This document shows positions 3,751 through 54,314 of a DNA stretch of 64,000 nt, in pieces. Position numbers and translations under genes: made by a program. The stretch is from the NCBI GenBank assembly GCA_032718475.1, contig JAUCBJ010008603.1, positions 11,643 through 75,642 of the forward strand. Reading direction: 5' to 3'. Each line of letters begins with the position of its first letter. The stretch's first letter is position 1. The stretch comes from Nemertoderma westbladi. Lineage: Eukaryota; Animalia; Xenacoelomorpha. Under the pieces are notes generated by a model that made no database searches, was not told the origin of the DNA, and was given only the letters and a program-made list of their open reading frames with translations.

Positions 3751-3968
3751 GTCGACCTACGAGAAAATGTACCACTTTACCGAGTTCGCGTGCTCTCTCA
3801 ATGAGCCGGAGCCGGATTGCGCTCCGACCGACTCGAGATTGCGACCCGATCAACGGATGTTGGAGGACGGAAACTGGCAGAAATCCAACGAACAGAAGAT
3901 GAGGTTGGAAGAGAAGCAGCGATTGGCTAGACGGCTTAGGGAAGCCGAGATAGCGGGAGCTGATGGAG
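3751..3968 (+). CDS. OSBP: OSBP penultimate exon (MYHFTEFA...PTDSRLRPDQ...KMRLEEKQR...GADG)
   Basis: tacag|G acceptor and GAG|gtgagt donor, phase 2 to phase 1. PTDSRLRPD and LEEKQR motifs. Confidence 0.95.
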
Positions 3969-6900
3969 GTGAGTCAGTGAGGAGGCCGAGATAGCGGGAG
4001 CTGTTCGGGGTGAGTTAGTGAGGCCGAGATAGCGGGAGCTGATGGAGGTGAGTCAGTGAGGAGGCCGAGATAGCGGGAGCTGATGGAGGTGAGTTAGTGA
4101 GGCGGCCGAGATAGCGGGAGCTGATCGAGGTGAGTTAGTGAGGAGGCCGAGATAGCGGTGAGCTGTTCGGGGTGAGTCAGTGAGGAGGCCGAGATAGCGG
4201 GAGGTGATCGGGGTGAGTCAGTGAGGAGGCCGAGATAGCGGGAGCTGTTCGGGGTATGTTAGTGAGGCCGAGATAGCGCGAGCTGTTCGGGGTGAGTTAG
4301 TGAGGCCGAGATAGCGGGAGCTGTTCGGGGTGAGTTAGTGAGGAGGCCGAGATAGCGGGAGCTGATGGAGGTGAGTCAGTGAGGAGGCCGAGATAGCGGG
4401 AGCTGATGGAGGTGAGTTAGTGAGGAGGCCGAGATAGCGGGAGCTGATGGAGGTGAGTCAGTGAGGAGGCCGAGATAGCGGGAGCTGTTCGGGGTGAGTT
4501 AGTGAGGCCGAGATAGCGGGAGGTGATCGAGGTGAGTTAGTGAGGAGGCCGAGATAGCGAGAGCTGATGGAGGTGAGTTAGTGAGGAGGCCGAGATAGCG
4601 GGAGCTGATGGAGGTGAGTCAGTGAGGAGGCCGAGATAGCGGGAGCTGTTCGGGGTGAGTTAGTGAGGCCGAGATAGCGGGAGGTGTTCGGGGTGAATTA
4701 GTGAGGAGGCCGAGATAGCGGGAGCTGTTCGGGGTGAGTTAGCAAGGAGGCCGAGATAGCGGGAGGTGATCGAGGTGAATTAGTGAGGAGGCCGAGATAG
4801 CGGGAGCTGTTCGGGGTGAGTTAGTGAGGCCGAGATAGCGGGAGCTGATCGGGGTGAGTTAGTGAGGAGGCCGAGATAGCGGGAGCTGATGGAGGTGAGT
4901 TAGTGAGGAGGCCGAGATAGCGGGAGCTGTTCGGGGTGAGTTAGTGAGGCCGAGATAGCGGGAGCTGTTCGGGGTGAGTTAGTGAGGCCGAGATAGCGGG
5001 AGCTGATCGAGGTGAGTTAGTGAGGAGGCCGAGATAGCGGGAGCTGTTCGGGGTCAGTTAGTGAGGCCGAAATAGCGGGAGCTGATGGAGGTGAGTTAGT
5101 GAGGAGGCCGAGATAGCGGAAGGTGTTCGGGGTGAGTTAGTGAGGAGGCCGAGATAGCGGGAGCTGTTCGGGGTGAGTTAGTGAGGCCGAGATAGCGGGA
5201 GCTGATCGGGGTGAGTTAGTGAGGAGGCCGAGATAGCGGGAGCTGATGGAGGTGAGTTAGTGAGGAGGCCGAGATAGCGGAAGGTGTTCGGGGTGAGTTA
5301 GTGAGGAGGCCGAGATAGCGGGAGCTGATGGAGGTGAGTTAGTGAGGAGGCCGAGATAGCGGAAGGTGTTCGGGGTGAGTTAGTGAGGAGGCCGAGATAG
5401 CGGGAGCTGTTCGGGGTGAGTTAGTGAGGCCGAGATAGCGGGAGCTGATCGGGGTGAGTTAGTGAGGAGGCCGAGATAGCGGGAGCTGATGGAGGTGAGT
5501 TAGTGAGGAGGCCGAGATAGCGGGAGCTGATGGAGGTGAGTTAGTGAGGAGGCCGAGATAGCGGGAGCTGTTCGGGGTGAGTTAGTGAGGAGGCCGAGAT
5601 AGCGGGAGCTGTTCGGGGTGAGTTAGTGAGGAGGCCGAGATAGCGGGAGCTGATGGAGGTGAGTTAGTGAGGAGGCCGAGATAGCGGGAGCTGTTCGGGG
5701 TGAGTTAGTGAGGCCGAGAGAGCGGGAGCTGTTCGGGGTGAGTTAGTGAGGCCGAGATAGCGGGAGCTGATCGAGGTGAGTTAGTGAGGCCGAGATAGCG
5801 GGAGCTGTTCGGGGTGAGTTAGTGAGGAGGCTGAGATAGCGGGAGCTGATGGAGGTGAGTTAGTGAGGAGGCCGAGATAGCGGGAGCTGTTCGGGGTGAG
5901 TTAGTGAGGAGGCTGAGATAGCGGGAGCTGTTCGGGGTGAGTTAGTGAGGAGGCCGAGATAGCGGGAGCTGATGGAGGTGAGTTAGTGAGGAGGCCGAGA
6001 TAGCGGGAGCTGATGGAGGTGAGTTAGTGAGGAAGCCGAGATAGCCGGAGCTGATGGAGGTGAGTTAGTGAGGAGGCCGAGATAGCGGGAGGTGAGTCAG
6101 TGAGGAGGCCGAGATAGCGGGAGCTGTTCGGGGTGAGTTAGTGAGGCCGAGATAGCGGGAGCTGATGGAGGTGAGTCAGTGAGGAGGCCGAGATAGCGGG
6201 AGCTGTTCGGGGTGAGTTAGTGAGGAGGCCGAGATAGCGGGAGCTGTACGGGGTGAGTTAGTGAGGAGGCCGAGATAGCGGGAGCTGATGGAGGTGAGTT
6301 AGTGAGGAGGCCGAGATAGCGGGAGCTGATGGAGGTGAGTTAGTGAGGAAGCCGAGATAGCGGGAGCTGTTCGGGGTGAGTTAGTGAGGAGGCTGAGATA
6401 GCGGGAGCTGTTCGGGGTGAGTCAGTGAGGAGGCCGAGATAGCGGGAGGTGATCGGGGTGAGTCAGTGAGGAGGCCGGGATAGCGGGAGCTGATGGAGGT
6501 GAGTTAGTGAGGAAGCCGAGATAGCGGGAGGTGAGTCAGTGAGGAGGCCGAGATAGCGGGAGCTGTTCGGGGTGAGTTAGTGAGGTGGCCGGGATAGCGG
6601 GAGGTGAGTCAGTGAGGAGGCCGAGATAGCGGGAGCTGTTCGGGGTGAGTTAGTGAGGCCGAGATAGCGGGAGGTGATCGAGGTGAGTTAGTGAGGAGGC
6701 CGAGATAGCGGGAGCTGTTCGGGGTGAGTTAGTGAGGAGGCCGAGATAGCGGGAGGTGTTCGGGGTGAGTTAGTGAGGAGGCCGAGATAGCGGGAGCTGA
6801 TGGAGGTGAGTTAGTGAGGAGGCCGAGATAGCGGGAGCTGTTCGGGGTGAGTTAGTGAGGCCGAGATAGCGGGAGCTGTTCGGGGTGCGTTAGTGAGGAG

Positions 6901-7813
6901 GCCGAGATAGCGGGAGCTGATGGAGGTGAGTTAGTGAGGAGGCCGAGATAGCGGGAGCTGTTCGGGGTGAGTTAGTGAGGTGGCCGGGATAGCGGGAGGT
7001 GATCGAGGTGAGTTAGTGAGGTGGCCGAGATAGCGGGAGCTGTTCGGGGTGAGTTAGTGAGGAGGCCGAGATAGCGGGAGCTGTACGGGGTGAGTTAGTG
7101 AGGAGGCCGAGATAGCGGGAGCTGATGGAGGTGAGTTAGTGAGAAGGCCGAGATAGCGGGAGCTGATGGAGGTGAGTTAGTGAGGAGGCCGAGATAGCGG
7201 GAGCTGTTCGGGGTGAGTTAGCAAGGAGGCCGAGATAGCGGGAGGTGATCGAGGTGAGTTAGTGAGGAGGCCGAGATAGCGGGAGGTGATCGAGGTGAGT
7301 TAGTGAGGCCGAGATAGCGGGAGCTGATCGAGGTGAGTTAGTGAGGTGGCCGGGATAGCGGGAGCTGATGGAGGTGAGTCAGTGAGGAGGCCGAGATAGC
7401 GGGAGCTGTTCGGGGTGAGTTAGTGAGGCCGAGATAGCGGGAGCTGTTCGGGATGAGTTAGTGAGGCCGAGATAGCGGGAGCTGATCGGGATGAGTTAGT
7501 GAGGCCGAGATAGCGGGAGCTGATCGAGGTGAGTTAGTGAGGCCGAGATAGCGGGAGGTGATCGAGGTGAGTTAGTGAGGAGGCCGAGATAGCGGGAGCT
7601 GTTCGGGATGAGTTAGTGAGGCCGAGATAGCGGGAGCTGATCGAGGTGAGTTAGTGAGGCCGAGATAGCGGGAGCTGTTCCAGGTGAGTTAGTGAGGCCG
7701 AGATAGCGGGAGCTGTTCGGGGTGAGTTAGTGAGGAGGCCGAGATAGCGGGAGCTGATGGAGGTGAGTCAGTGAGGAGATAGCGGGAGCTGTTCGGGTTG
7801 AGTAAGTGAGGCC
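3944..7813 (+). repeat. 38/41-bp tandem array (~95 copies); unit = last 25 nt of the OSBP exon + GTGAGT donor + intron start
   Basis: Unit gccgagatagcgggagctgatggag|gtgagttagtgaggag. The first copy is the coding exon end. Confidence 0.97.
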
Positions 7814-9862
7814 TCTCAATCAATCACACAGCTTACGTCGCTCTCAACCAATCAATCACACAACTCACTTTGCTCTCAATCAATCACACAGCTCACTTTG
7901 CTTTCAACCAATCACACAACTCACTTCGCTCTCAACCAATCAATCACACAGCTCACTTTGCTCTCAATCAATCACACAACTCACTTTGATCTCAATCAAT
8001 CACACAGCTTACTTCGCTCTCAACCAATCAATCACACAGCTTACTTTGCTTTCATCCAATCACACAGCTCACTTTGCTCTCAACCAATCACACAACTCAC
8101 ATTGCTCTCAACCAATCAATCACACCGATTACTTTACTTTCAACCAATCACACAGCTCACTTTGCTCTCAATCAATCACACAGCTTACTTCGCTCTCAAC
8201 CAATCAATCACACAGCTTACTTTGCTTTCAACCAATCACACAGCTCACTTTGCTCTCAACCAATCACACAACTCACTTTGCTCTAAACCAATCAATCACA
8301 CAGCTTACTTTACTCTCAATCAATCACACAGCTTACTTCGTTCTCAACCAATCAATCACACAGCTTACTTTACTCTCAATCAATCACACAGCTTACTTCG
8401 CTCTCAACCAATCAATCACACAGCTCACTTTGCTTTCAACCAATCACACAGCTCACTTTGCTCTCAACCAATCACACAACTGACTTTCCTCTCAACCAAT
8501 CAATCACACAGCTTACTTTACTCTCAATCAATCACACAGCTTACTTCGTTCTCAACCAATCAATCACACAGCTTACTTTACTCTCAATCAATCACACAGC
8601 TTACTTCGCTCTCAACCAATCAATCACACAGCTCACTTTGCTTTCAACCAATCACACAGCTCACTTTGCTCTCAACCAATCACACAACTGACTTTCCTCT
8701 CAACCAATCAATCACACAGCTCACTTTACTCTCAATCAATCACACAGCTCACTTTGCTCTCAACCAATCAATCACACAGCTTACTTTGCTTTCAACCAAT
8801 CACACAGCTCACTTTGCTTTCAACCAATCACACAGCTCACTTTGCTCTCAACCAATCACACAGCTCACTTTACTCTCAATCAATCACACAGCTTACTACG
8901 CTCTCAACCAATCAATCACACAGCTTACTTTGCTTTCAACCAATCACACAGCTCACTTTGCTCTCAACCAATCACACAACTCACTTTGCTCTCAACCAAT
9001 CAATCACACAGCTTACTTTGCTTTCAACCAATCACACAGCTCACTTTGCTCTCAACCAATCACACAACTCACTTTGCTCTCAACCAATCAATCACACAGC
9101 TTACTTTACTCTCAATTAATCACACAGCTTACTTCGTTCTCAACCAATCAATCACACAGTTTACTTTACTCTCAATCAATCACACAGCTTACTTCGCTCT
9201 CAACCAATCAATCACACAGCTCACTTTGCTTTCAACCAATCACACAGCTCACTTTGCTCTCAACCAATCACACAACTCACTTTCCTCTCAACCAATCAAT
9301 CACACAGCTCACTTTACTCTCAATCAATCACACAGCTTACTTCGCTCTCAACCAATCAATCACACAGCTCACTTTGCTTTCAACCAATCACACAGCTCAC
9401 TTTGCTCTCAACCAATCACACAGCTTACTTTACTCTCAATCAATCACACAGCTCTCAACCAATCAATCACACAACTCACTTTGCTCTCAATCAATCACAC
9501 AACTCACTTTGCTCTCAATCAATCACACAGCTCACTTTGCTCTCAACCAATCACACAGCTAACTTTGCTCTCAACCAATCACACAGCTTACTTCGCTCTC
9601 AACCAATCAATCACACAACTCACTTTGCTCTCAACCAATCAATCACACAGTTCACTTTGCTTTCAACCAATCAATCACACAGCTAACTTTGCTCTCAACC
9701 AAACAATCACACAGCTCACTTTACTCTCAATCAATCACACAGCTCACTTTACTCTCAATCAATCACACAGCTTACTTTACTCTCAATCAATCACACAGCT
9801 TACTTTACTCTCAATCAATCACACAGCTTACTTTACTCTCAATCAATCACACAGCTTACTTT
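7813..9862 (+). repeat. 28/32-bp tandem array (~68 copies) at the 3' end of the same intron, with acceptor-like architecture
   Basis: Unit ctcac/cttac-tttgctctc-aac(caat)caatcacacag. It abuts the donor array and stops ~40 nt before the true acceptor. Confidence 0.95.
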
Positions 9863-9901: not shown

Positions 9902-10044
9902 GGCGTATTTCTGGAGATTGGGAGCCGACTTGGTTTCAGAAACAACTTGACCCCCAAACTGGCAGCATTATACACAAGTTTAGCGGCGACTATTGGGATT
10001 GCAAGCAAAAGCAGCATTGGCAGAAATGCCCCAGTATATTCTAG
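9902..10044 (+). CDS. OSBP: OSBP terminal exon (...WEPTWF...GDYWDCKQKQHWQKCPSIF*)
   Basis: atgcag|GG phase-1 acceptor matches the donor at 3968. Typical OSBP C-terminus (P.WF ... YW ... W..CP.IF). Confidence 0.93.
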
Positions 10045-16293: not shown

Positions 16294-16546
16294 CATAGGT
16301 TGGGGTCTGTAGGCCAAATAATACTGACAATGACCCATTTCGTGGTGGATTGTCTCTAAGTTCTTCTGATTAACGGATCCACACATCATTATCCTAACGT
16401 CTCCCTTTGCCGTTAGATCGAAGGCGGATGCATGGCAGACCATATCAACCCCTTCCGGTTTCTCCATTATCGTATAATTCCAGAACTCCGGGGTCATCTT
16501 AGGCATTCCTATAGACTGGTAGAACTCATCCGACAGTTCGAACATT
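16294..16546 (-). CDS. ACE: ACE exon 5 with the zinc-binding HEMGH motif
   Basis: aatag|A acceptor and ATG|gtgagt donor. Contains VCHASAFD and TIHHEMGHCQYY. Confidence 0.96.
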
Positions 16547-29245: not shown

Positions 29246-29368
29246 TATCCTCCACCATTTCTTTCAGATTATCAACCTCGTAAACCCCTCGCCATACTTC
29301 CGACGCATCTGTGTAGTTTTGTGACGTAGCTCCTTTATTGCTTAGAGCTACCGACTCTACATATAAGT
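29217..29368 (-). CDS. ACE: ACE exon 3 (DLYVESVALSNKGA...WKQVKPLYQ)
   Basis: tttag|AC phase-1 acceptor and CAG|gtatgt donor. W.QVKPLY motif. Confidence 0.92.
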
Positions 29369-37825: not shown

Positions 37826-37905
37826 GTAACTAAAGACGAGCTGCCGCCCCAGTTAAACACAAAGAACTCCACCCTAGCTAGCCGAACCATCAGCCACCAG
37901 ACGAG

Positions 37906-40900: not shown

Positions 40901-41110
40901 GGACAACGGGATTAAACCCGGAAGTCGCGGAATACATACCGGCGAGTAGGCCAGAAGCTGATAGGCCTATACCGGTACCAGCACAGCAGTATGACTACAG
41001 CATGCAGGGACATAACATATACCCAGGGGAGGGGGGAATTATTGCGGATAGGTGTATGGGCCCCAACATATTAACATCAACCCCAGTACCAGACATACCG
41101 GTGGGGGGGG
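37906..41110 (+). CDS. Long low-complexity N-terminal extension of gag (coiled-coil, Asn-rich, 13-aa repeats), split into three frames at poly-G runs
   Basis: ORFs 37906-39486, 39569-40225 and 40186-41184 switch frame at the G runs near 39480, 40190 and 41105 and lead into the gag-pol frame. Confidence 0.6.
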
Positions 41111-44100
41111 GGGACAGGGTGACATTCCCCCATCACAATATCAACAATATACCCCGACAGGAACAAGAACAACGAGACCCCTAGATGAAAACAGGTCGTG
41201 TGATACAGACATATGGAGGGGGCCGCTACCCCCGATGACATATCCGAGTCAGAGAAGATCAAGAAATAGGACGGACGAACCGCACCAGACAGGGGAAACT
41301 ATACAGCACCCGTCGAATCCATTAGAAGCGCAGGCAATGGGGATGGCCACGTTGATCGATGCGTTGAAAACGAGGATCGAATTACCACCCGTGGAACCGT
41401 TCAAATTCGATGGGAGCAGGCCGGAAGAATACTTACAGTTTCGGCGAATGTATAGTAACGAAATACTAACAAAAAACTTGACGCAGGCGGAGTGCCTAAA
41501 GTATCTACAAGTATACACGGGAGGCCCAGCATACGACATCGTGAGGCAATATCAGGGAATAGAGGGCGGCTTCACGACAGCATGGCGGGCACTGGATAGG
41601 GAATACGGGCACCCGGCCAAGATCATCAGGCAAACGCTGAGAGGCATAACATCGGGTGGCCTACAGGATAATCCCGTTAGCATTAAGACGTTTGCTAACA
41701 AAGTCGAGAAGGCGCTGATCGTGCTGAAGACGCTAGACGCGCCATACGAGCTCAACGCGTCCAATAACATCACCACGATAGCGCAGGCACTACCGAGCTG
41801 GCTGCGCAACAAATGGAGGAAGATCGCTTTCTCCACCCGAGACAAGAAGGGTGCGGAACCAGGTTTAGAAGAAATGTCAAACTTCTTAAATTACGAGGCT
41901 GAACTAATAACTGACCCAGTCTATAGCGAAGACAGCCTGGGAAAGGGACCAAAGACAGACTACCATAGACCAAAGCCAGAGCACAACACATCGAACGCAT
42001 TACCGAGACTCAGGCAATCATTGCCGTATGCAGCGACGCAGGGGACTGCAAGTCCACAGACAAACGAAGATAAGACAACATCAAGGGACGGACAGGGGAA
42101 CAATAACAACATGAATAAACATAACCCCAGTACGTCCAGTAGGCCAAACCCAGTCAATAAGAATAGTAGGGACTTTGGTACGAATATAACTGCGATACGC
42201 AATGCATTGTATAAAGAGGGCTACGACCCAAAGAGCAAATGCCAGTTACACGCAAATGCGCTTCATAAAACTATGAATTGCAGGTACTGGCAGGCGCTAC
42301 CGAGGCAAGACCAGATAGATTACGCGTCGAGCAATAAAATCTGCTCGCGATGTGTGAAGAGTGGACACAAGGCCAGGGAATGCCAAGAGAAGCCGGTCAA
42401 GTTTGGCCAAAGGAGAGGCCAGACGATGGCAACGAGCACAGTAGGGGCGAAGAAGAGAGGAACAGTGCTACTTGGAGTAGTACCAGTACGAGTGATCGGG
42501 GAAGGCAATCGATCAGTAACAACACTAATGCTGGTTGATAGTGGAGCTGCCTTCACATTAGTTGAGGAATGGGTAGCCGAAGAAATAGGGTTGAGAACGA
42601 GGCCAAGCAGGATGGCGGTGACAACCATCTCTAGCAAAGACGAGATCCTAGAGATGAGGACAGGACGGTGCGCAATTGCAGCAGTGGCACCAGGATGCGA
42701 TTATGGGGCAACCATCGACCCCATCCAAGTAATAGAGTCAATTAACATCAATGCCAGGCGGCCAACCAACATCGAGGTCGAGCAATACAAATTCCTGGAC
42801 AACATTGACTTCTCAATCCCAGACGTGGACGTTGGGAAGGTATCCATCATAGTAGGCATGGACTGCCCAACGGCCCACGAGAGAATGCAAACGGTCTTCG
42901 GCGAAGACAAGCAGAGCGACCCGGTGGCCATATTAACGCCATTCGGGTGGACGCTGAGTGGTCCAATTAAGAGCAAGATACCATTCAGGATGTCGGAGAC
43001 ATCAGGATGCATGTTCGCGGGAACAATGCAGGAAATGGGTGACGAGGGAGCAGAGGAGCAGCTTAAAAGACTGCTCAGACAAGACTTCGAGGGACTGAAA
43101 GAGACCGGGGTCGGGACCTCGGTAGAAGACAAGCAGGCTCTACAAAGTGTGGAGGAATCGATGACGTGTGATGAGGGGCGGTATACAATAGGAATGGTAT
43201 GGAAACTACCGAAGATACCGCTACCCGATAATAGAGGGATGGTACTCACGAGACTCCGCAAGCTGAAACAAACACTACAACGGAGCCCCGAGAAGAACGA
43301 GTACATTCACAAAACGATCAAGAAGTACGTCGAGAAGGGATGGGCCGTGGAGTTACCGGTCGACGAACCGAACACGGACAGGACATACTACCTGCCACTC
43401 CACGTAGCTTTAGACCCAAAGAAAGGTAAACTTAGGATGGTAGTCGATGCATCGGCAAAGACCGACGGAAAGTGCTTAAACGATTACCTACTAGAGGGCC
43501 CAAACATATACAATTCGGGCATAGAAGTACTACTTAGATTTAGGAATGGGAAACACGCCTTCACGTGTGACATAGAAGGCATGTTCAACCAAGTCCGAGT
43601 AACAGAGGAAGATAGCGATAGTCAACGCTTCTTATGGTATAACGGCGAAGAAGAACCGCCTATAATACCGGCATATAAGATGGTAGTACAAAACATGGGG
43701 GCCAAGTCGTCCTCATTTACGACGACTATGGCAGTGAGAGACACGGTAAAAGGGAAGGAAGATAGATATAGCAGTAGGGCCGTCGATATGATCAGACGCG
43801 GCTTCTACGTAGACGACGGTATGGAGTCTGGAAATACGGTTGAGGAGATACTGGAAACAGGGCGCGAGGTTCGCGACATCCTGAAAGGATCCGGCTTCAA
43901 CCTGACCAAATTCCAATCCAGTTCAGAAGAATTCATCAAGGAAATAGAAGACAAGAAACCAGAATCGACCATGGACAACCCTACAACAGCCAAAGGACAG
44001 GACATGGCGATTAAGAGAACGGAATCCCAGCAGAAGGCATTGGGAATCGTGTGGGATAGGAAAACAGACGAACTGAAGTATCAGCTGAGCCAGGAGGGCG

Positions 44101-46442
44101 CGGACACCCATACGAAGAGGGGTTATGTATCGTATATAGCAAGGATATACGATCCCCTAGGCCTAGCATCCCCACTACTAATCACGGGGAAACAGATACT
44201 CAAGAGAGTATATAAATTGAAGGATGAGTGGGATGTAGAGGTACCAGAGGACATCAAGAAACAGTGGAGCAAATGGACAGGGGACTTGGAGAGGATGGGA
44301 ACATACAACATGCCGCGAGTGTATTTTCCGGACGGGAACATGACGAGTCTGGACTTACATATGTTCTCCGACGCGTCGTTAGAGGCATACGGAGCGGCAC
44401 TCTATTTGGTACAGCGGGAGGGGCCTCACAAGCCCAGACTAGCCTTTAGCAAAGCTAAGTCAACGCCGCCAGATTCAGCATCTGTTCCCAAGCTAGAATT
44501 GACAGCTGCGAGACTAGGAGTTAGAGCCACAGCCTACCTAGTGGATACAATTCCCAACATAGTGGAGACACACTACTGGACGGACTCCATGGTAGTGCTT
44601 GGTTGGCTACACAACGAAAAGACGAGATACCCGATATTCGTCGCGAATAGAGTGGACGAAATAAGGGCGAGCACAGAACTGGAAAGGTGGCACTACTGCC
44701 CAACAGATGAGAACCCAGCGGACTTGCTGTCGAGGGGCGTGGAACGCCACACTTTCCTGAAGAAGGAAGTATTGTGGCAACATGGGCCACAATTTCTGAG
44801 CGATAGAGAGGCCTGGCCGCCGATGAAGAAGGTGGACCCGGGCTCGGAACCAGTATCAGAAGGAGAGGGAGATTCAGAGGGAGAAGAGATATACTCCCAG
44901 ATGGTGAGGGAGATTAGGGACGTGCAACCAGGAAGGGAACTGTGCGATAACCCGACGGATAAACTCCTCAGCTACAGTTCTAGTTGGTATAAGACCAAGA
45001 AACTAGTGGCGTACTGGAGAGCCTTTGGGAATTTCCTTGCGGGAGTCGGCAAGGACAAGAAGACCAGGACAACCATAGATCTGGAAGGAGCGGCCAAGGC
45101 AGTGATCCGCTATGAACAACGCAAGAACTACGGCGACGAGGTGGAACGTGTCGGTAACCAACAGCACCTCCGACGGGATAGCGAGTTGATCACGCTGTCG
45201 CCACAACTCAACAAGGATGGGATCCTAGTAATGAATTCTAGGGTGGGATATAACAACAGTATAGTCGTGCCACCGAAACCCATCATCATTCCCACAGGAT
45301 CGCCTATAGTCCACCAGATCATATGGGACTCCCACAAATCGATACTGCATGGGGGCACCAACCGAACCCTCACAGAGATAAGAAGGACCTATTGGGTCAA
45401 ACAATTAAGGAAAAAGGTGAAAGCGGTAGTGGGGCAGTGCCAGACCTGCCGACGAGCGAAGAAGGAGCGAGCCGTACAGGAGATGGCGCCACTACCGGCG
45501 AGTAGGGTAAGACAGCACGACCCGCCATTTACGCATTGCGGTGTGGACATGTTCGGGCCGATAAAGATCAAAGTGATGCGACACACGGAGAAACGTTACG
45601 GCATTATCTTCGTATGCAACAATACGCGGGCGGTGGGGATAGAACTCGCCCAAGATGCAACCGCATCAGCGTTCATTAACGCCTTAGAAAGGTTTAGGGA
45701 CCGCAAGGGTGGGACGATCGCAGTGATATACAGCGACAACGGCACCAACTTTGTGGGCGCAGAGAGTGAGATGGCAGAGGCCTTGGACATCTTAGAAGGA
45801 GAAGAAGTCAGGGCGGCCATGAGAAGACGACAAGTAAAGTGGGAGAGAAGGACGCCGTATGCACCACATACACTAGGATGCGTCGAGAGATTGGTGGGCA
45901 GTTCAAAGCGTCTAATGACGAAGTTAATGAACACCCACATGGTCACTGAGGACGTTTTACGAACAGTACTTGCGAAGTGCGAGGGGATCATTAATAGCAG
46001 ACCGCTATATCCGGAGAATGATGACCCTGAGTCATTAGACGTGTTGACGCCTAGCCATTTTCTAATGGAAAGGCCAGCGACCATCGATATGCGGGGTGTA
46101 GACCCAGATGACATACATTCCCGCCAGAGTTGGAAAGTCGCTAAAGCAATAAGCGCAGAGTATTGGAGGAGGTGGGTAGAAGAATACCTACCCACGCTCC
46201 ATAAGCGAAGCAAGTGGAGGAAGCCAAACAGGGAGTTAAGAGAGGGAGATCTCGTAATCGTCACGGATGATACTATCATCAACAACCAATGGCGGTTGGC
46301 GAGAGTTGTAGGCACCTACTCCAACGAGGACGGAAGAGTCCGATCGGTAGAAGTGCGGATAGGTGGAAAGATAGGTGCGAAGGACAGAAAAACCTACAGG
46401 AGAGCGGTAGGTAAATGCTGTCTCTTAGAAGGAGCACCTTAG
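41052..46442 (+). CDS. BEL/Pao gag-pol polyprotein
   Basis: Gag KFDG region, zinc knuckle CSRCVKSGHKAREC, protease LVDSGA, RT YYLPLH/RMVVDAS/DIEGMF/YVDD, RNase H FSDAS, integrase GVDMFGP/SDNGTNF/ERLVG. Confidence 0.95.
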   Translation: MYGPQHININPSTRHTGGGGGQGDIPPSQYQQYTPTGTRTTRPLDENRSCDTDIWRGPLPPMTYPSQRRSRNRTDEPHQTGETIQHPSNPLEAQAMGMATLIDALKTRIELPPVEPFKFDGSRPEEYLQFRRMYSNEILTKNLTQAECLKYLQVYTGGPAYDIVRQYQGIEGGFTTAWRALDREYGHPAKIIRQTLRGITSGGLQDNPVSIKTFANKVEKALIVLKTLDAPYELNASNNITTIAQALPSWLRNKWRKIAFSTRDKKGAEPGLEEMSNFLNYEAELITDPVYSEDSLGKGPKTDYHRPKPEHNTSNALPRLRQSLPYAATQGTASPQTNEDKTTSRDGQGNNNNMNKHNPSTSSRPNPVNKNSRDFGTNITAIRNALYKEGYDPKSKCQLHANALHKTMNCRYWQALPRQDQIDYASSNKICSRCVKSGHKARECQEKPVKFGQRRGQTMATSTVGAKKRGTVLLGVVPVRVIGEGNRSVTTLMLVDSGAAFTLVEEWVAEEIGLRTRPSRMAVTTISSKDEILEMRTGRCAIAAVAPGCDYGATIDPIQVIESININARRPTNIEVEQYKFLDNIDFSIPDVDVGKVSIIVGMDCPTAHERMQTVFGEDKQSDPVAILTPFGWTLSGPIKSKIPFRMSETSGCMFAGTMQEMGDEGAEEQLKRLLRQDFEGLKETGVGTSVEDKQALQSVEESMTCDEGRYTIGMVWKLPKIPLPDNRGMVLTRLRKLKQTLQRSPEKNEYIHKTIKKYVEKGWAVELPVDEPNTDRTYYLPLHVALDPKKGKLRMVVDASAKTDGKCLNDYLLEGPNIYNSGIEVLLRFRNGKHAFTCDIEGMFNQVRVTEEDSDSQRFLWYNGEEEPPIIPAYKMVVQNMGAKSSSFTTTMAVRDTVKGKEDRYSSRAVDMIRRGFYVDDGMESGNTVEEILETGREVRDILKGSGFNLTKFQSSSEEFIKEIEDKKPESTMDNPTTAKGQDMAIKRTESQQKALGIVWDRKTDELKYQLSQEGADTHTKRGYVSYIARIYDPLGLASPLLITGKQILKRVYKLKDEWDVEVPEDIKKQWSKWTGDLERMGTYNMPRVYFPDGNMTSLDLHMFSDASLEAYGAALYLVQREGPHKPRLAFSKAKSTPPDSASVPKLELTAARLGVRATAYLVDTIPNIVETHYWTDSMVVLGWLHNEKTRYPIFVANRVDEIRASTELERWHYCPTDENPADLLSRGVERHTFLKKEVLWQHGPQFLSDREAWPPMKKVDPGSEPVSEGEGDSEGEEIYSQMVREIRDVQPGRELCDNPTDKLLSYSSSWYKTKKLVAYWRAFGNFLAGVGKDKKTRTTIDLEGAAKAVIRYEQRKNYGDEVERVGNQQHLRRDSELITLSPQLNKDGILVMNSRVGYNNSIVVPPKPIIIPTGSPIVHQIIWDSHKSILHGGTNRTLTEIRRTYWVKQLRKKVKAVVGQCQTCRRAKKERAVQEMAPLPASRVRQHDPPFTHCGVDMFGPIKIKVMRHTEKRYGIIFVCNNTRAVGIELAQDATASAFINALERFRDRKGGTIAVIYSDNGTNFVGAESEMAEALDILEGEEVRAAMRRRQVKWERRTPYAPHTLGCVERLVGSSKRLMTKLMNTHMVTEDVLRTVLAKCEGIINSRPLYPENDDPESLDVLTPSHFLMERPATIDMRGVDPDDIHSRQSWKVAKAISAEYWRRWVEEYLPTLHKRSKWRKPNRELREGDLVIVTDDTIINNQWRLARVVGTYSNEDGRVRSVEVRIGGKIGAKDRKTYRRAVGKCCLLEGAP

Positions 46443-46554
46443 AGCGGAGTTAGAGTGGAGTTTAGTCGTCCAAGTTTTGGACTGAGGGGGGTGGGATTGA
46501 GGGCGAGACGCCCTTCCCACACAAATAAAAATAAAATAAAATAAAAAAAATAAT

Positions 46555-47470
46555 AGTTAATTAGTTAGTAGGTACGTAGTACCTAGAGTTAGTTAGTTAG
46601 TAGGTACGTAGTGCCTAGAGTTAGTTAGTTAGTAGGTACGTAGTGCCTAGAGTTAGTTAGTCAGTAGGTACGTAGTACCTAGAGTTAGTTAGTTAGTAGG
46701 TACGTAGTGCCTAGAGTTAGTTAGTTAGTAGGTACGTAGTACCTAGAGTTAGAGAGTTAGTAGGTACGTAGTACCTAGAGTTAGTTAGTTAGTAGGTACG
46801 TAGTACCTAGAGTTAGAGGGTTAGTAGGTACGTAGTACCTAGAGTTAGTTAGTTAGTAGGTACGTAGTACCTAGAGTTAGAGGGTTAGTAGGTACGTAGT
46901 ACCGATAGTTAGAGAGTTAGTAGGTACGTAGTACCTAGTTAGAGTTAGAGTTAGAGGGTACGTAGTACCGATAGTTAGAGAGTTAGTAGGTACGTAGTAC
47001 CAATAGTTAGTTAGTTAGAGGGTACGTAGTACCGATAGTTAGAGAGTTAGTAGGTACGTAGTACCTAGTTAGAGTTAGAGTCAGAGGGTACGTAGTACCG
47101 ATAGTTAGAGAGTTAGTAGGTGCGTAGTACCTAGTTAGAGTTAGAGTTAGAGGGTACGTAGTACCGATAGTTAGAGAGTTAGAGGGTACGTAGTACCAAT
47201 AGTTAGTTAGAGTTAGAGGGTACGTAGTACCGATAGTTAGAGAGTTAGTAGGTACGTAGTACCTAGTTAGAGTTAGAGTTAGAGGGTACGTAGTACCAAT
47301 AGTTAGTTAGTTAGAGGGTACGTAGTACCGATAGTTAGAGAGTTAGTAGGTACGTAGTACCTAGTTAGAGTTAGAGTTAGAGGGTACGTAGTACCAATAG
47401 TTAGTTAGAGTTAGTAGGTACGTAGTACCTAGTTAGAGTTAGAGTTAGTAGGTACGTAGTACCATTAGTT
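46555..47470. repeat. Hairpin-forming ~26-32-bp tandem array inside the LTR element, between pol and ORF3
   Basis: Core taggtac-gta-gtaccta inverted repeat separated by agtt/agag spacers. Confidence 0.9.
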
Positions 47471-47975
47471 AGAGAGAGAGAGTGAGAGATAAAAGGGGTA
47501 AATAGGATATAGATATTAGTTAGCAGTAAGCAGAGTTAGTAGCGAGAGGGGGGCATATGAGTACAGCTGGATAAATCGTGTGGCCACACGACGCATACTG
47601 CTGTACTGCATAGGCCCACTGAGTAGGCCAGAATATGGATCAGAGAGAGAATAGAATAAATCCATAGGCAGTAGTAAGTAGTAGGACAGTAGAATCAAAG
47701 CAAAATAAATAAATAAATAGAATAGGGCAAAAATCGGAAAATAGTGGTAACACAAGGAAAGTCGTTCTAGAACATAATAAAAGTAACGGACAGAAATTGT
47801 AAATTAGGCTGATTTACTAGCTCCGAAATTAATTAGATTAAATTAAGCTTGAAAGGCGCAGTTAAGTAGAAAAGTAGGCCATTATCGAACTGTACGAAAC
47901 ATCTTAATACATCACTCATCTGTATTGCGCCTTGGTAAGGCACCACTCTACAGGTGAGCGAGTGTAGTGTTCGGA

Positions 47976-50510
47976 ATGGCAAGTAAGCTGATCAGGAAGA
48001 GAAAGGCGGAGTCAGGAGGAAAAGAAATATTGGTGGATTTCACCGAAAGACACCCAGAGGAGAAGACGAGAGGATACTACGAGAGGTTGGAAAGGGGTCA
48101 CGCGGCACGAGCGCTGCAGGATCACTTCCGGGAGGCGCACGAACAGCGGTTGGTCGGGACCTACGGGACGCCGTCGCTGGACAACGCGATCTTCCAACAC
48201 TTCCACTACGTGGTGAAAGGAGACGAGGCGAAGTTCGGGATTCCGAAGTATCCGAGGGAATCGCCGAGGAAGGACTGGAAAAGATTCATAGAGTCCGTCA
48301 ACAGAGGAGGATATATGATCCTAGATGACGAGGGAACCGTGGAAGACGAAGCGGGTTCGAGACGAGGAACGGCAGGGTCGGCCAGGACCATACTCCTACA
48401 TTTGGCCGCGCCAAATGGGGACATCTTCTTATTCGATTTAGGGACGTATGGGAAGAAGGACGGGCCGAAATTAGACCGATTGCCGAAAGCGGTACAAGTC
48501 TTAGTAAGAGAGAAGTCGACGACGAAAGTGGGATCGGCGATTCGCGAGGACGCGGAGAGGATCATCGGTCCGGACGCCACCAACCTCCTGGATATGCAGA
48601 AAGTCTTTATGGCTATGACGGCACCGGATGGATTGGGGGTGGTCGAAAACACAGGCCAATGCGGGGCGGTGGCGATGGGCCAATTATTGGGGCTCGTATG
48701 CCACAAACCGATGGACTGGGGAAAGTTTAGGGAAGAATACGGAGCAGAACTGGCGAACTCGCTGAAGTGGGGAGCGAGACCGGGAAAGCAGGAGGTATAT
48801 CAGTTTCGCAGAGGAGCGATAAAGGTATATCAGAAGCGATATATCCTGCAGGAGGACTGGATGATGATAAGTTTGCTTAACTTATTCATGACCGTAGTCA
48901 TCGAGAGGGAACCAGGAGCATTTCTGTTATCGGGATCACCCCTAAGCTACAGGAGAGCCTTTAAAGTGGCCTTTGACGGTCTGGTAGACCACCCGGGGCT
49001 GAAGGGCGAGTCGGTGTACTACAACAGCCGACATCTGGTAGACGGGGAGACAGATACACCGTATCAGAGATGGGAGCAGCTAGAGGCGGACAGACGAGAA
49101 GCAAAGCGACTGGAAGAAGTCGCTAGACGGGAGAGGATAGAAGCAGAGGAGAGGGAAGAGGAGGCCAGGGCACAGAGTTACGGCTTCGAGGAACAGGCGG
49201 GCCTAGACGAACTTCATTGGACTTCGTCAGGGAGTTCGGGGGAGTCTCTAGGGCGAGAATTGGGATGGACGGTGGGATCGCCGAAACAGTCGACGTCGGG
49301 GTTGCAAACGATGCCCATACCAGTGGGCGCCGAGGGCGACCAACCGCCAAGGAAGTTAAGGGAGCTAGAGGGATGGAGAGCTACGGGCGAGAGTCAAGGC
49401 GGGAAGGGACATAGTGGATCCATCGGGATACCGGGATTGGAGACACTACCAGAAGAGGAGGACGGCGACGACGAGTTCGGAGAGATCCCGGCCATCGAGA
49501 GGATAGGCCACTCGGACACGGACTGGGTTGGCGGAAGGGTGGTGACAGCCAGTGGGGCGAGGGCCTTCTGGAACAGATCCGGCAAGCGGACCTGGGTGCA
49601 CGAGGAGCCGGCGATGGATTTCGCGGGGAGCACCATCAGGTTGGGCGAGCAACCGGGGACGGCACCACGGATAGTATTCGGGGAGACGATGCCCGAAAGG
49701 GGCGGAGAGATAGACGTAAACAGGGAGAGCAACGTAGAGAAGTTCACCTACCAGCGACTCCATAGACCGCGGAGATCGCTTGGGACGAAAGACGAGGTGG
49801 GACGGGAGACATTGGTACTCGGCTGCGACTACTGTGGGAGACAGACCCATCGGGAAAGCAGCTGCCTATACCGGTTCCAACGGGGAACCTTTTGTCTCTA
49901 TTGTAGAGAACCAAGTCACAGGATGGGGGCGTGTCCACGGTTGCATAACCGATGTCCAAAGTGCCACTTTCGGGGACACTACGGACGCGAGTGCGACTGG
50001 ATGAGCGACGAGGAGAAGTTCACGAGGTTCGAGGAGTGGGCCGACGTCGGGGCCATGACGCGCCAGCGCATGAAGGCCCAAGAGTTCAAGTGGGGTTTCT
50101 TCCTCATAAACCAGGAGACCCACATGGAAATCATAAAGCGAAGGTTACCGTTTACCTATCAAGAGGTAGCTACGGCGGCATCGTTCGCCGGAGTTATGAA
50201 CACGCAACGGTACCTGGACAGGTGGACACCAGAGAACCGGAGGGAGTTTAGGGATTTCTTGGCGGAACACGTACCAAAGGCAATGAAAATGATCCTATGG
50301 GACGCCACACGAGGGAGACAACCAGGCCATTCTGAGGGGCCACCGGCGAAGCGGTATCGGGCTTTAATAACACCAGCGCCCAAGGAGCCGACGACCGGGA
50401 TCAGCAAGGAAGTGGCAGCGAAGGTCCGGAAGCAGAAAGCGGATGATGCCAGAGGAGCGGTGATAACCAAGAAACGGGCCAGGGAAGAGGACGTGAGGAG
50501 GAACAGATAA
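47976..50510 (+). CDS. ORF3 of the BEL element: DnaQ/DEDDy-like 3'-5' exonuclease domain, acidic linker and three CCHC zinc knuckles
   Basis: ExoI-like MILDDEG, LLHLAAP..IFLFDL, LP.....LV......KVGSAIRED, ExoIII-like QKRYILQED. Knuckles CDYCGRQTHRESSC, CLYCREPSHRMGAC and CPKCHFRGHYGREC. Confidence 0.7.
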   Translation: MASKLIRKRKAESGGKEILVDFTERHPEEKTRGYYERLERGHAARALQDHFREAHEQRLVGTYGTPSLDNAIFQHFHYVVKGDEAKFGIPKYPRESPRKDWKRFIESVNRGGYMILDDEGTVEDEAGSRRGTAGSARTILLHLAAPNGDIFLFDLGTYGKKDGPKLDRLPKAVQVLVREKSTTKVGSAIREDAERIIGPDATNLLDMQKVFMAMTAPDGLGVVENTGQCGAVAMGQLLGLVCHKPMDWGKFREEYGAELANSLKWGARPGKQEVYQFRRGAIKVYQKRYILQEDWMMISLLNLFMTVVIEREPGAFLLSGSPLSYRRAFKVAFDGLVDHPGLKGESVYYNSRHLVDGETDTPYQRWEQLEADRREAKRLEEVARRERIEAEEREEEARAQSYGFEEQAGLDELHWTSSGSSGESLGRELGWTVGSPKQSTSGLQTMPIPVGAEGDQPPRKLRELEGWRATGESQGGKGHSGSIGIPGLETLPEEEDGDDEFGEIPAIERIGHSDTDWVGGRVVTASGARAFWNRSGKRTWVHEEPAMDFAGSTIRLGEQPGTAPRIVFGETMPERGGEIDVNRESNVEKFTYQRLHRPRRSLGTKDEVGRETLVLGCDYCGRQTHRESSCLYRFQRGTFCLYCREPSHRMGACPRLHNRCPKCHFRGHYGRECDWMSDEEKFTRFEEWADVGAMTRQRMKAQEFKWGFFLINQETHMEIIKRRLPFTYQEVATAASFAGVMNTQRYLDRWTPENRREFRDFLAEHVPKAMKMILWDATRGRQPGHSEGPPAKRYRALITPAPKEPTTGISKEVAAKVRKQKADDARGAVITKKRAREEDVRRNR

Positions 50511-51222
50511 GTTCCCGGAGACGAGGGAATGAGACTGAGACTGGGAAGTGGTGCGCCTGGAAGGCGCCGCATGTAACGTACGAACTATTAAGTATAAATT
50601 TAATTAATGCAAATAACTATATAAGTGCAATTTGTATGTACGTACGTAGTGATTAGCAGTAAAATACATACGTTTGGAGTAAGTACTATAGTCATACAAC
50701 CTTTCTCAATTAGCTACTGGGACTGGGGGACAACTGACTATGGCACTATGGACGAGACAACTGACAATTTCACGCTTCTTGAGTGCGACGGCACGAGAGG
50801 GGGGGGGGGAGGGGGTTCGTCAGGAGAGATAAAACAGTCAAAGTGGAGTTGAGAATCGGAATAAGAGTGCGAAGTGCGGAGAGAGTGCGAACGCAATTCT
50901 AGTGTGGGGGGGGAGAATAAGAGGCTGAGTGAGGGACGAGGAGGTCCGGGGGTATGAGAGAGTTAGGGTGAGAGTGAAGGTGAGATAGGGCGAAAATGTT
51001 GGGGAAACAAAAATCGCGTGAAGAGGTGAGCGCGATCGGCCCGACATGAGACGCCAGGCACACAGGGTAGCGTTATCATACCCAGAGGGAGCGGCCTGGA
51101 AAGCCGACTCCGAGAGAAAAGATTTCCACCCCACACCCGATGCTAGATCGGGATCCAGCGGGATTGTAACGCACTTTTTGGTTGATGCTATCTTCTTACC
51201 GGGAAGATAGCATGGGGGGGAG

Positions 51223-51760
51223 TGTTAGCTTATTCAATCCCGCCAACACCCCATAAAGTTATAAGCCGATAAGCAATATTGGGAGCCACGAGATTGGGCA
51301 ATTAACCAACTCGTGCCATCCCAATAAGAGTGGGAAGGAAGCACATAATAGAGGGTCAGGGGCCAAACCCCTAACCCAAGGAGAGCAGGTGGAGTGAACG
51401 GGAATACTCCACGGGGCGCCAACAAGGATATTAACCAATCAGAGGGGGGAATGGCATCGATTGAGTAGCAGTAAGGCCACCGTGCAATATAACCAATAAC
51501 CTATTAATCAGTGATTCAGTTATCTCAGTGCAGCAGTGCTAGCGTAGGGTACAGTCAATTAGTTTAGTTAGGGGATCACGGGACTTTAGTTACCGTATCC
51601 CGCCTACCGTATAATTCACAATATATCTATATCCTATAACCTATTATTATACACCGAACTTCAGAACTCAGTTATCTTTATTTCACTCTTATACACGGCG
51701 GGGACGCGTGGACTAAATCCCACATCGGATAAATCGGGATCCCTCCTGGATCCCGTCACA
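51223..51760 (+). repeat. 3' LTR (538 bp)
   Basis: Preceded by the polypurine tract gggggggag and matches the 5' LTR. Confidence 0.95.
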
Positions 51761-54314
51761 GGAGTGGACCAAAAAACGGGTTAGCTAGCAGTTGAAGCAG
51801 GACTTACCTATTAGTGAGTGGACCAACAAACGGGTTAGCTAGTAGTTGAATCAGGACTTACCTATTAGTGAGTGGGAGTGGACCAAAAACGGGTTAGCTA
51901 GCAGTTGAAGCAGGACTTACCTATTAGTGAGTGGACCAACAAACGGGTTAGCTAGCAGTTGAACCAGGACTTACCTATTAGTGAGTAGGAGTGGACCAAC
52001 AAACTGGTTAGCTAGTAGTTGAACCAGGACTTACCTGTTAGTGAGTGGACCAACAATCGGTTTAGCTAGCAGTTGAACCAGGACTTACCTATTAGTGAGT
52101 GGCCCAACAAACGGGTTAGCTAACAGTTGAACCAGGACTTACCTGTTAGTGAGTGGACCAACAAACGGGTTAGCTAGCAGTTGAATCTGGACTTACCTAT
52201 TAGTTAGTGGGAGTGGACCAACAAACGGGTTAGCTAGTAGTTGAACCAGGACTTACCTGTTAGTGAGTGAATCAGGAAACGGGTTAGCTAGCAGTTGAAC
52301 CAGGACTTACCTATTAGTGAGTGGACCAACAACCGGGTTACCTAGCAGTTGAACCAGGACTTACCTATTAGTGAGTGGACCAATAAACGGGTTAGCTAGC
52401 AGTTGAACCACGACTTACCTATTAGTGAGTGGGAGTGGACCAACAAACGGGTTAGCTAGTAGTTGAACCAGGACTTACCTGTTAGTGAGTGGACCAACAA
52501 TCGGTTTAGCTAGCAGTTGAACCAGGACTTACCTATTAGTGAGTGGCCCAACAAACGGGTTAGCTAACAGTTGAACCAGGACTTACCTGTTAGTGAGTGG
52601 ACCAACAAACGGGTTAGCTAGCAGTTGAATCTGGACTTACCTATTAGTGAGTGGACCAACAAACGGGTTAGCTAACAGTTGAACCAGGACTTACCTGTTA
52701 GTGAGTGGACCAACAAACGGGTTAGCTAGCAGTTGAATCTGGACTTACCTATTAGTGAGTGGACCAACAAACGGGTTAGCTAGCAGTTGAACCAGGACTT
52801 ACCTATTAGTGAGTGGACCAACAAACGGGTTAGCTAGCAGTTGAACCAGGACTTACCTGTTAGTGAGTGGACTAACAAACGGGTTAGCTAGCAGTTGAAT
52901 CAGGACTTACCTGTTAGTGAATAGTGATTGGACCAACAAACGGGTTAGCTAGCAGTTGAATCATGATTTACCTGTTAGTGAGTGGACCAACAAATGGGTT
53001 AGCTAGCAGTTGAATCAGGACTTACCTATTAGTGAGTGGACCAACAAACGGGTTAGCTATCAGTTGAATCATGACTTACTTGTTAGTGAGTGGACCAACA
53101 AACGGGTTAGCTAGCAGTTGAACCATGACTTACCTATTAGTGAGTGGACCAACAAACGGGTTAGCTAGCAGTTGAATCAGGACTTACCTATTAGTGAGTA
53201 GACCAACAAACGGATTAGCTAGCAGTTGAACCAAGACTTACCTGTTAGTGAGTGGACCAACAAACGGGTTAGCTAGCAGTTGAACCAGGACTTACCTATT
53301 AGTGAGTGGACCAACATACGGGTTAGCTAGCAGTTGAATCATGACTTACCTATTAGAGAGTGGACCAACATACGGGTTAGCTAGTAGTTGAACCAGGACT
53401 TACCTGTTAGTGAGTGAATCAGGAAACGGGTTAGCTAGTAATTGAACCAGGTCTTACTTATTAGTGAGTGGACCAACAAACGGGTTAGCTAGCAGTTGAA
53501 TCATGACTTACCTGTTAGTGAGTGGACCAACAAACGGGTTAGCTAGCAGTTGAACCAGGACTTACCTATTAGTGAGTGGACCAACAAACGGATTAGCTAG
53601 CAGTTGAACCAGGACTTACCTATTAGTGAGTGGAACAACAAACGGGTTAGCTAGCAGTTGAATCATGACTTACCTGTTAGTGAGTGGACCAACAAACGGG
53701 TTAGCTAGTAGTTGAACCAGAACTTACCTATTAGTGAGTTGACCAACAAACGGGTTAGCTAGCAGTTGAATCAGGACTTACCTATTAGTGAGTTGACCAA
53801 CAAACGGGTAAGCTAGCAGTTGAATCATGACTTACCTGTTAGTGAGTGGACCAACAAACGGGTTAGCTAGTAGTTGAACCAGAACTTACCTATTAGTGAG
53901 TTGACCAACAAACGGGTAAGCTAGCAGTTGAACCAAGACTTACCTGTTAGTGAGTGGACCAACGAACGGGTTAGCTAGCAGTTGAATCAGGACTTACCTG
54001 TTAATGAGTGGACCAACAAACGGGTTAGCTAGCAGTTGAATCAGGACTTACCTATTATTGAGTGGACCAACAAACGGGTTAGCTAGTAATTGAACCAGGT
54101 CTTACCTGTTAGTGAGTGGATCAACAAACGGGTTAGCTAGCAGTTGAACCAGGACTTACCTGTTAGTGAGTGGACCAACAAACGGGTTAGCTAGCAGTTG
54201 AACCAGGACTTACCTATTAGTGAGTGGACTAACAAACGCGTTAGCTAGCAGTTGAACCAGGACTTACCTGTTAGTGAGTGGACCAACAAACGGGTTAGCT
54301 AGCAGTTGAACCAG
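51761..54314 (-). repeat. 54-bp tandem array (~47 copies); unit = last ~47 nt of the VMAT exon + GTAAGT donor
   Basis: Minus-strand unit cctggttcaactgctagctaacccgtttgttggtccactcactaacag|gtaagt, encoding [16 protein letters not shown]. Confidence 0.97.

What the first reader, a model, noticed from the sequence alone, without database searches (positions are those of the whole stretch)
3944..54314. Splice-junction-anchored satellites: exon end + 5' splice site amplified tens to hundreds of times in three unrelated genes
Seen: four large arrays with unrelated sequences and unit sizes (41, 23, 36 and 54 bp) each have a unit that straddles a real exon/intron boundary. They are OSBP 3968|gtgagt, ACE 27606|gtaagt, ACE 29217|gtatgt and VMAT 54268|gtaagt. 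In each case copy 1 is the coding exon end and the array extends into the intron in the sense direction. That is 4 of the 11 donor sites mapped here. Two further arrays look like amplified acceptors. Established: tandem duplication of AG|GT sites is a proposed route of intron gain, and U1 snRNP binding affects pausing and suppresses premature polyadenylation. Inference: this genome has a process that nucleates or retains tandem amplification at splice junctions, for example splicing-coupled pausing or R-loop repair slippage, or RT template jumping on pre-mRNA. It would also need a rule for choosing the first donor among hundreds of near-identical ones. I do not know of a named system with this pattern.
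Basis: partly seen in the sequence, partly recalled or inferred. Interest (0 to 1): 0.92.

Follow-up and report, generated by a model that had tools for sequence, protein, structure and literature searches.

The report
Dense splice-donor "mirage" minisatellites
In this animal's DNA, four of eleven exon ends have been copied with their splice signal 39 to about 475 times into the next intron, yet the assembled RNA, where checked, uses the first signal; this repeat type is already known from lancelets and humans, and whether this genome really favours splice signals as repeat seeds is untested.

Summary
Four arrays (41, 36, 23, 54 bp; about 97, 39, 475, 47 copies) start in a coding exon end of OSBP, ACE (twice) and VMAT and reiterate the donor: 4 of 11 mapped donors, 0 of 11 acceptors. 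Spliced contigs of run X4 use the first donor in 3 of 3 cases laid. The two 'amplified acceptors' are not supported. The pattern is not unnamed: amphioxus 'mirage' minisatellites (PMC3087553) and human F7, CBS, LMNB2 repeats have it, and upstream-donor choice was tested on F7 (PMC1557585). It is not intron gain: the acceptors are single-copy DNA outside the arrays. Within the window the donor overlap beats uniform placement (p about 5e-6 to 4e-4) but not a 60-100-nt ancestral-intron null (p 0.08-0.77), and the three complete array introns collapse to 36-84 nt. No genome was held, so the genome-wide test is open. The scan noted the same class before in other genomes, three times window-wide. 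What stands out: density, an 11-kb array, and young arrays sitting in the tiniest introns. The VMAT locus may be misjoined here.

The parts
3751..3968 (+). OSBP penultimate exon; its last ~27 nt are copy 1 of the 41-bp array; donor 3968|gtgagt
   Evidence: Pfam Oxysterol_BP; open frame; homologues abut across the intron
3940..7811 (+). 41/38-bp donor-reiterating minisatellite, about 97 copies; 14-16 nt of intron per unit
   Evidence: 22 copies carry the last 25 exon nt + GT verbatim
7813..9862 (+). 28-32-bp purely intronic minisatellite, about 70 copies, abutting the donor array; not an amplified acceptor
   Evidence: 0 sense and 62 antisense GTRAG; acceptor 9902 not duplicated
9902..10044 (+). 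OSBP last coding exon; single-copy acceptor
16294..16546 (-). ACE exon 5; single-copy acceptor 36 nt from the last repeated donor
16574..27616 (-). 23-bp donor-reiterating minisatellite, about 475 copies, 99.8% of an 11,059-nt intron; 430 of 445 donor 9-mers identical to the used one; higher-order blocks
27606..27826 (-). ACE exon 4, flanked by both ACE arrays; donor 27606|gtaagt used in cDNA
   Evidence: X4 contig, 0 other letters, loose end equals 16517-16546
27857..29245 (-). 36-bp donor-reiterating minisatellite, about 39 copies; donors 2 and 3 are in frame and stop-free
29217..29368 (-). ACE exon 3; donor 29217|gtatgt used in cDNA
34245..36788 (.). 31-bp minisatellite, 82 copies, acceptor-like on the minus strand but next to no exon found
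37287..51760 (+). BEL/Pao LTR retrotransposon without target-site duplication; cuts the VMAT array in mid-unit; possible misjoin or rearrangement point
   Evidence: LTRs 37287-37825 and 51223-51760, 529 identities, 9 mismatches, 1 gap, flanks unlike; Pao peptidase, DUF1759, DUF5641, integrase
51762..54319 (-). 54-bp donor-reiterating minisatellite, at least 47 copies (truncated by the LTR); only 6-7 nt of intron per unit
54268..54550 (-). VMAT (SLC18A1/2-type) internal exon; donor 54268|gtaagt used in cDNA; neighbouring exons are not in the window

Best explanation
These are four 'mirage'-type minisatellites whose unit is an exon end plus its splice donor; the mRNA contigs use the first donor, and the arrays likely began as ordinary small tandem duplications in very short introns that were tolerated and then grew by unequal exchange. 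Shown: anatomy, first-donor use in 3 of 3 laid, single-copy acceptors, in-frame stops behind donors 2-8 in three arrays, higher-order blocks. Inferred step 1 (birth): slippage or repair between 3-6-nt look-alike words in the exon end and the first 5-16 intron bases. Inferred step 2 (filter): a duplication inside an exon, or across the branch point and acceptor of a 36-84-nt intron, is purged, while one across the donor leaves the exon intact and turns extra copies into intron; in so short an intron most tolerated duplications of 23-54 bp must cross the donor. Inferred step 3 (silence): the most upstream donor is preferred as in F7, and rare use of later donors would mostly hit a stop and be removed by nonsense-mediated decay. 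Inferred step 4 (growth): the genome expands minisatellites freely (27 kb of this 64-kb window), with or without a donor.
For: Arrays fill 97.8-99.8% of their introns, which collapse to about 36, 42 and 84 nt, the three shortest of ten (tails printed). With 60-100-nt ancestral introns, 4 of 5 intronic arrays at donors has p 0.08-0.77. 10 of 14 arrays in the window touch no mapped junction, among them a 70-copy array in the same OSBP intron and arrays inside the LTR element and a LINE piece. Donor 4 of 11 versus acceptor 0 of 11 (one-sided Fisher p 0.045) is the asymmetry the filter predicts. First donor in cDNA contigs; only 1 X4 record was laid on a stretch holding copies of both ACE units. 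Stops at codon 2-9 behind donors 2-8 for OSBP, ACE 23-mer and VMAT. Same anatomy and same splicing outcome reported for amphioxus Adh3, globins, TnC, PGBD5 and human F7, LMNB2, PDGF.
Against: The short-intron null is conditional on an array being intronic. It does not explain why 4 of 10 non-TE arrays fall in three introns that collapse to about 160 nt out of about 16 kb of other non-coding DNA (p 1.5e-5 for the donor overlap under uniform birth), while the arrays are young: each still holds copies with 11-48 nt of the exon end verbatim. No array-free intron here is under 127 nt, and the collapsed lengths are lower bounds (the last ACE 36-mer copy is cut, so sequence was lost). All four downstream breakpoints lie within 16 nt of the donor (post hoc p 0.017). 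The seed microhomologies cannot be told apart from the duplication itself without an array-free allele. In human 6-16 and CBS, later donors are partly used, and contigs drop rare isoforms.
Confidence: 0.58

Rival explanations
1. A transcription- or splicing-coupled mutational process would seed or drive tandem duplication at donors (U1-bound or paused complexes, R-loops, breaks near the 5' splice site), so this genome makes mirages far more often than neutral placement allows.
For: p 5e-6 to 4e-4 under the three nulls that use present-day DNA; 4 of the 8 arrays with 25 or more copies are at donors; breakpoints within 16 nt of the donor; young arrays; G-rich sense strand in 3 of 4 (skew 0.60, 0.27, 0.34); Ebner et al. 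call mirages possibly general in cephalochordates with an unclear mechanism.
Against: One selected window, three genes. VMAT array is C-skewed in sense (-0.16) and the second OSBP array strongly so (-0.74). Short introns force the same breakpoints. An earlier scan note on an annelid reports no excess over chance in a wider sample (e1-9992352, unchecked, other genome).
Confidence: 0.27
2. Selection would keep or enlarge donor-bearing arrays because they help splicing or transcription: lengthening introns near the minimum spliceable size, or loading U1 to protect the long intron from premature cleavage.
For: The ACE intron at 27606 collapses to a clean 36 nt. Variable positions are rarer in the donor hexamer than elsewhere in the units (1 of 24 versus 25 of 130, Fisher p 0.08).
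Against: That test is not significant and variants are not independent. The donor arrays hold no AATAAA to suppress, and a 2-kb array with no sense GTRAG persists in the same OSBP intron. A few copies would do for length; 475 are not needed.
Confidence: 0.1
3. The introns themselves arose by tandem duplication of an AG|GT-bearing exonic segment (Rogers model).
For: Units contain AG|GT or AA|GT; the model is established elsewhere (PMC2812944 passages; PMC3087553).
Against: All three mapped acceptors lie in single-copy sequence beyond the array and the next exons do not begin with the unit's intron part; the VMAT next exon does not either. The units carry in-frame stops right after the donor, so they are not former coding sequence.
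Confidence: 0.02
4. The arrays, or their great length, are assembly artefacts.
For: Near-identical higher-order blocks in the 23-mer array; depth ratios disagree with the assembled copy numbers; the window probably has a join problem at the LTR element.
Against: Units of three arrays, with many variants, are in short-read contigs of two samples from two studies at 10 times single-copy depth or more; 10-37 distinct unit variants per array. Only the lengths remain uncertain.
Confidence: 0.03

Closest known systems
Amphioxus 'mirage' minisatellites: Adh3, globins BflGb6 and BflGb9, troponin C, PGBD5 (PMC3087553, abstract and section 16 passages read; PMC3902484, passages read; the naming paper PMC117041 was not held)
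   Same: Tandem units spanning an exon-intron boundary, several unrelated genes in one genome, unit sizes in the reported 10-160 bp range, normal mRNA splicing, mechanism stated as unclear.
   Different: Copy numbers 39-475 against 2-7 in the globin and PGBD5 passages read; donors only here, whereas amphioxus has both boundaries; apparently not an amphioxus (no Branchiostoma among the listed hits, best identities 63% ACE, 73% OSBP among well-covered top rows).
Human donor-reiterating VNTRs: F7 IVS7 (37 bp, 5-9 copies), 6-16 intron 2, CBS IVS13, LMNB2, PDGF intron 4 (PMC1557585, abstract, Introduction passages and Discussion read)
   Same: First monomer holds the exon end and authentic donor; identical pseudo-donors follow; the most upstream donor is used.
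   Different: F7's unit is mostly intron (4 exon + 33 intron nt); here mostly exon (11-48 exon nt, 5-16 intron nt). Up to about 475 copies against at most about 26. Five scattered human genes against 4 of 11 donors in 64 kb.
Internal tandem repeats at exon-intron boundaries and intron gain by tandem duplication (PMC2812944, passages read; PMC4974935, search listing only)
   Same: Tandem units holding splice signals at an exon-intron boundary.
   Different: There the repeats supply both splice sites and create the intron or alternative forms; here the acceptor is outside the array and the intron predates it.

Membership tests
Mirage minisatellites | Tandem unit spans a real exon-intron boundary, copy 1 being the functional exon edge | tested here: met
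Mirage minisatellites | Minisatellite-size unit (10-160 bp in the cases reported) | tested here: met
   23, 36, 41, 54 bp; range
Mirage minisatellites | Regular mRNA splicing is kept | tested here: met
   first donor in cDNA-type contigs for 3 of 3 arrays laid, of 4 arrays; presence only, rare isoforms would be dropped
Mirage minisatellites | Length instability between haplotypes or in soma | tested here: inconclusive
   depth ratios differ between runs but also within one sample; no spanning reads
Mirage minisatellites | Turnover by unequal exchange with concerted evolution | tested here: inconclusive
   higher-order blocks and shared variants in the 23-mer array; an assembly effect is not excluded
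F7-type donor-reiterating VNTR | Downstream pseudo-donors identical in sequence to the used donor | tested here: met
   9-mers: ACE 23-mer 430 of 445, ACE 36-mer 37 of 38, OSBP 44 of 92, VMAT 17 of 47, each count including copy 1
F7-type donor-reiterating VNTR | Pseudo-donors are functional once the upstream donor is mutated (oriented scanning) | not testable with these tools
   needs minigene mutants; shown for F7 in PMC1557585
Intron gain by tandem duplication (Rogers model) | Donor and acceptor both supplied by copies of one AG|GT unit, restoring the original coding sequence | tested here: not met
   acceptors single-copy and outside the arrays; next exons unrelated to the unit
   0 of 11 mapped acceptors duplicated; no exon found beside 34245-36788; a non-coding exon there is not excluded

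The most novel reading that the evidence does not exclude
This genome has a genuine donor-directed amplification process: young, unrelated minisatellites are born with one breakpoint inside the U1 footprint of transcribed genes, at a third of the donors here, and turn 36-84-nt introns into 1-11-kb ones. It would be a route of intron and genome expansion independent of transposons, and the first genome dense enough in mirages to test how they arise and how one donor is picked among hundreds.
Probability: 0.25. Interest if true: 0.7.

Novelty: new member of a known kind. Interest (0 to 1): 0.35.

Why it matters
As a class it is known and probably near-neutral. Its use is as test material: how mirages arise is stated as unclear in the literature read, and my 10 paper searches found no genome-wide enrichment test. 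A genome with 4 of 11 donors amplified could settle whether donors attract duplication or merely tolerate it. The ACE 36-bp array separates scanning from decay, because its donors 2 and 3 would add 12 or 24 residues without a stop. The 23-bp array shows first-donor choice against about 430 identical rivals. In practice such arrays mislead gene prediction and assembly.

Tried and rejected
No whole genome is held, so no genome-wide test. A 39-nt interspersed repeat of the window found 0 matches in metagenome contigs, so no further DNA of this organism was obtained. The OSBP exon fetched 16 loci from metagenomes; the 14 translated read through the position or are distant relatives, and none has an array there: uninformative on intron conservation. 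The run search listed no RNA holder; X4 was recognised as spliced only by laying it. Depth as copy number: rejected (36-mer unit 1733/10.1 in X1, 274/25-27 in X2, 479/12.6 in X3, about 20 expected from the window). X2's 295-nt contig joins ACE exon 4 to the 36-mer array end without differences but has only 14 intron letters on the 23-mer side, below the tool's 31-letter rule. An extra OSBP exon near 2271 was considered and dropped: 1432 to 2872 keeps the frame. The 7813-9862 array as donor array of an antisense gene: 62 antisense GTRAG, but no exon-end homology and no transcript evidence. Donor conservation inside units: p 0.08, inconclusive. Organism not identified; a literature check on xenacoelomorph genomes, prompted by an acoel VMAT among the hits, found nothing on this pattern. 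PMC10078293 passages did not bear on it. Paper searches; two searches returned nothing; subscription papers are mostly missing and no supplements were read. Earlier-finding look-ups for this genome and for look-alike stretches were empty. For the nulls I kept 14 arrays, one row per locus with period 21 or more and 4.7 or more copies, from 46 TRF rows; duplicates, the ATCT microsatellite, low-copy and AT-rich rows were dropped; TE extents were rough.
Full report
What the window is. The organism was not identified; listed protein hits are distant.

The observation. TRF finds the four arrays at the stated places and unit sizes. Exon models with GT-AG ends give one open frame each: OSBP 368 aa and ACE 614 aa, one terminal stop. 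Homologues abut across the array-filled introns with no room for extra copies. The VMAT exon matches solved VMAT2. In all four the first donor-like site of the array is the exon end. Of 11 donors mapped, 4 are duplicated and 7 are not; of 11 acceptors none is. The two arrays offered as amplified acceptors are not: 7813-9862 is intronic and stops about 39 nt short of the acceptor, and no exon was found beside 34245-36788, though a non-coding exon there cannot be excluded.

Reads. Six runs were listed, none on record as RNA; four were laid. X4 behaves as spliced cDNA (inference). Its 1839-nt contig covers 27606-27826 without differences, continues on one side into 16517-16546 and on the other through 29 letters into 29246-29275, so both ACE introns are cut at donor 1. 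Its 1846-nt contig covers the VMAT exon and leaves at donor 1 into sequence that reads as the next VMAT exon when compared with the homologues printed. Contigs drop rare forms, so low use of later donors is not excluded. DNA runs X1, X2, X3 hold the 23-, 36- and 54-bp units in many variants at high depth, which rules out invention by the assembler, but depth does not fix copy number.

Anatomy. Units are mostly exon: 11-48 nt of exon end recur verbatim before GT, with 5-16 nt of intron. Most repeated donors equal the used one (430 of 445 in the 23-mer array). Arrays make up 97.8-99.8% of their introns; collapsed, the three complete introns are about 36, 42 and 84 nt, the three shortest of ten, the next being 127 and 144. 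The 84-nt OSBP intron had two adjacent pieces amplified, one with the donor and one without. Acceptors are single-copy and the next exons are unrelated to the units, which excludes intron gain by AG|GT duplication. Donors 2-8 would bring an in-frame stop in OSBP, the ACE 23-mer and VMAT; ACE 36-mer donors 2 and 3 are in frame and open. Short look-alike words flank the seeds, as slippage would need, but without an array-free allele they cannot be told from the duplication itself. The 23-mer array has higher-order blocks.

Is it more than chance? Against uniform placement, yes: p 4.9e-6 for 4 of 14 arrays, 3.8e-7 for 4 of 8 large ones, 1.5e-5 for 4 of 10 outside TEs, 4.2e-4 for 3 of 4 in complete introns. 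Against short ancestral introns, no: p 0.025 at 130 nt, 0.08 at 100, 0.25 at 80, 0.77 at 60. The collapsed lengths make that null realistic for the donor-versus-interior question. It leaves one thing open, which counts against my best reading: why young arrays sit in these tiny introns and not in the far larger rest of the non-coding DNA. The window was chosen for the pattern among very many, so the small p-values overstate the case. Donor versus acceptor asymmetry is borderline (p 0.045). Tests for selection on the repeated donors (p 0.08) and for R-loop-type skew (3 of 4 G-rich in sense) are inconclusive, and a 2-kb array without sense U1 sites persists in the same gene.

How it most likely works. 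Small tandem duplications arise readily in this genome; those across a donor in a short intron leave the protein intact because the upstream donor is used and stray products mostly meet a stop; they then grow by unequal exchange like the genome's other minisatellites (0.58). A real donor-directed birth process coupled to transcription or splicing is the main rival (0.27); selection for intron length or U1 loading is weaker (0.10); intron gain (0.02) and artefact (0.03) are nearly excluded.

What is known. Ebner et al. (PMC3087553; abstract and section passages) describe 'mirages', minisatellite-like tandem duplications of exon-intron boundaries in amphioxus Adh3 and globins that do not disturb splicing, call them possibly general in cephalochordates and their mechanism unclear. 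PMC3902484 (passages) adds troponin C and two 5'-site cases in PGBD5. Borensztajn et al. (PMC1557585; abstract, Introduction passages, Discussion) list five human genes with donor-reiterating minisatellites and show with F7 mutants that the most upstream functional donor is chosen; in 6-16 and CBS two pseudo-sites are also used. The naming paper was not available. Ten searches found no genome-wide enrichment test; the library lacks most subscription papers. The scan's earlier, unchecked notes report the class in ray, shark, abalone, urchin (about 377 copies) and annelid genomes, and window-wide in three invertebrates, one with no excess over chance in a wider sample.

A caveat on the window. 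Neither neighbouring VMAT exon is in it, the VMAT array is cut in mid-unit by an LTR and does not resume beyond the element, and the element has no target-site duplication. Two loci are probably joined there by misassembly or recombination; nesting of ACE and OSBP in a VMAT intron over 54 kb long is the less likely alternative. The count 4 of 11 stands either way.

Verdict. Real, confirmed at the RNA level, a new and unusually dense member of a known kind. Interest 0.35; a 25% chance of a genuine donor-directed process, which would deserve 0.7.

Noticed in passing
window 37287-51760: BEL/Pao element of 14.5 kb with 98% identical LTRs and no target-site duplication; VMAT's flanking exons are absent from the window, so this may be a misjoin or a recombination point between two element copies.
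   Followed up: partly
window 47958-50510 (+): Extra 850-aa ORF between pol and the 3' LTR of the BEL/Pao element; no Pfam family and no PDB match; has Cys/His clusters near its C-terminal third.
   Followed up: partly
window 7813-9862: Second array in the OSBP intron carries GTRAG in nearly every unit on the antisense strand (62 sites, 0 in sense); chance or an antisense donor.
   Followed up: partly
window 34245-36788: 98%-homogeneous 31-bp array with AATAAA in each of 82 units on the plus strand and an acceptor-like pyrimidine tract + CAG on the minus strand, 3 kb upstream of the ACE start; no exon found.
   Followed up: partly
window 16547-16582 (-): The ACE intron collapses to a clean 36-nt GT-AG intron, shorter than any array-free intron here (127 nt or more).
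   Followed up: partly
window 3632-3670 and 62721-62759: Identical 39-nt core of an interspersed, SINE-like repeat; ARAGORN finds no tRNA.
   Followed up: no
window 62840-64000: Array of 22-52-bp palindromic units with mixed orientation, running off the window end.
   Followed up: no
window 10428-10665 and 15603-15914: Tandem arrays born inside LINE fragments (41 bp x 5.8; 155 bp x 2), showing that arrays also arise away from splice sites.
   Followed up: no
run X4: Labelled 'DNA?' by the tool but its contigs are spliced; the kind label is probably wrong.
   Followed up: yes
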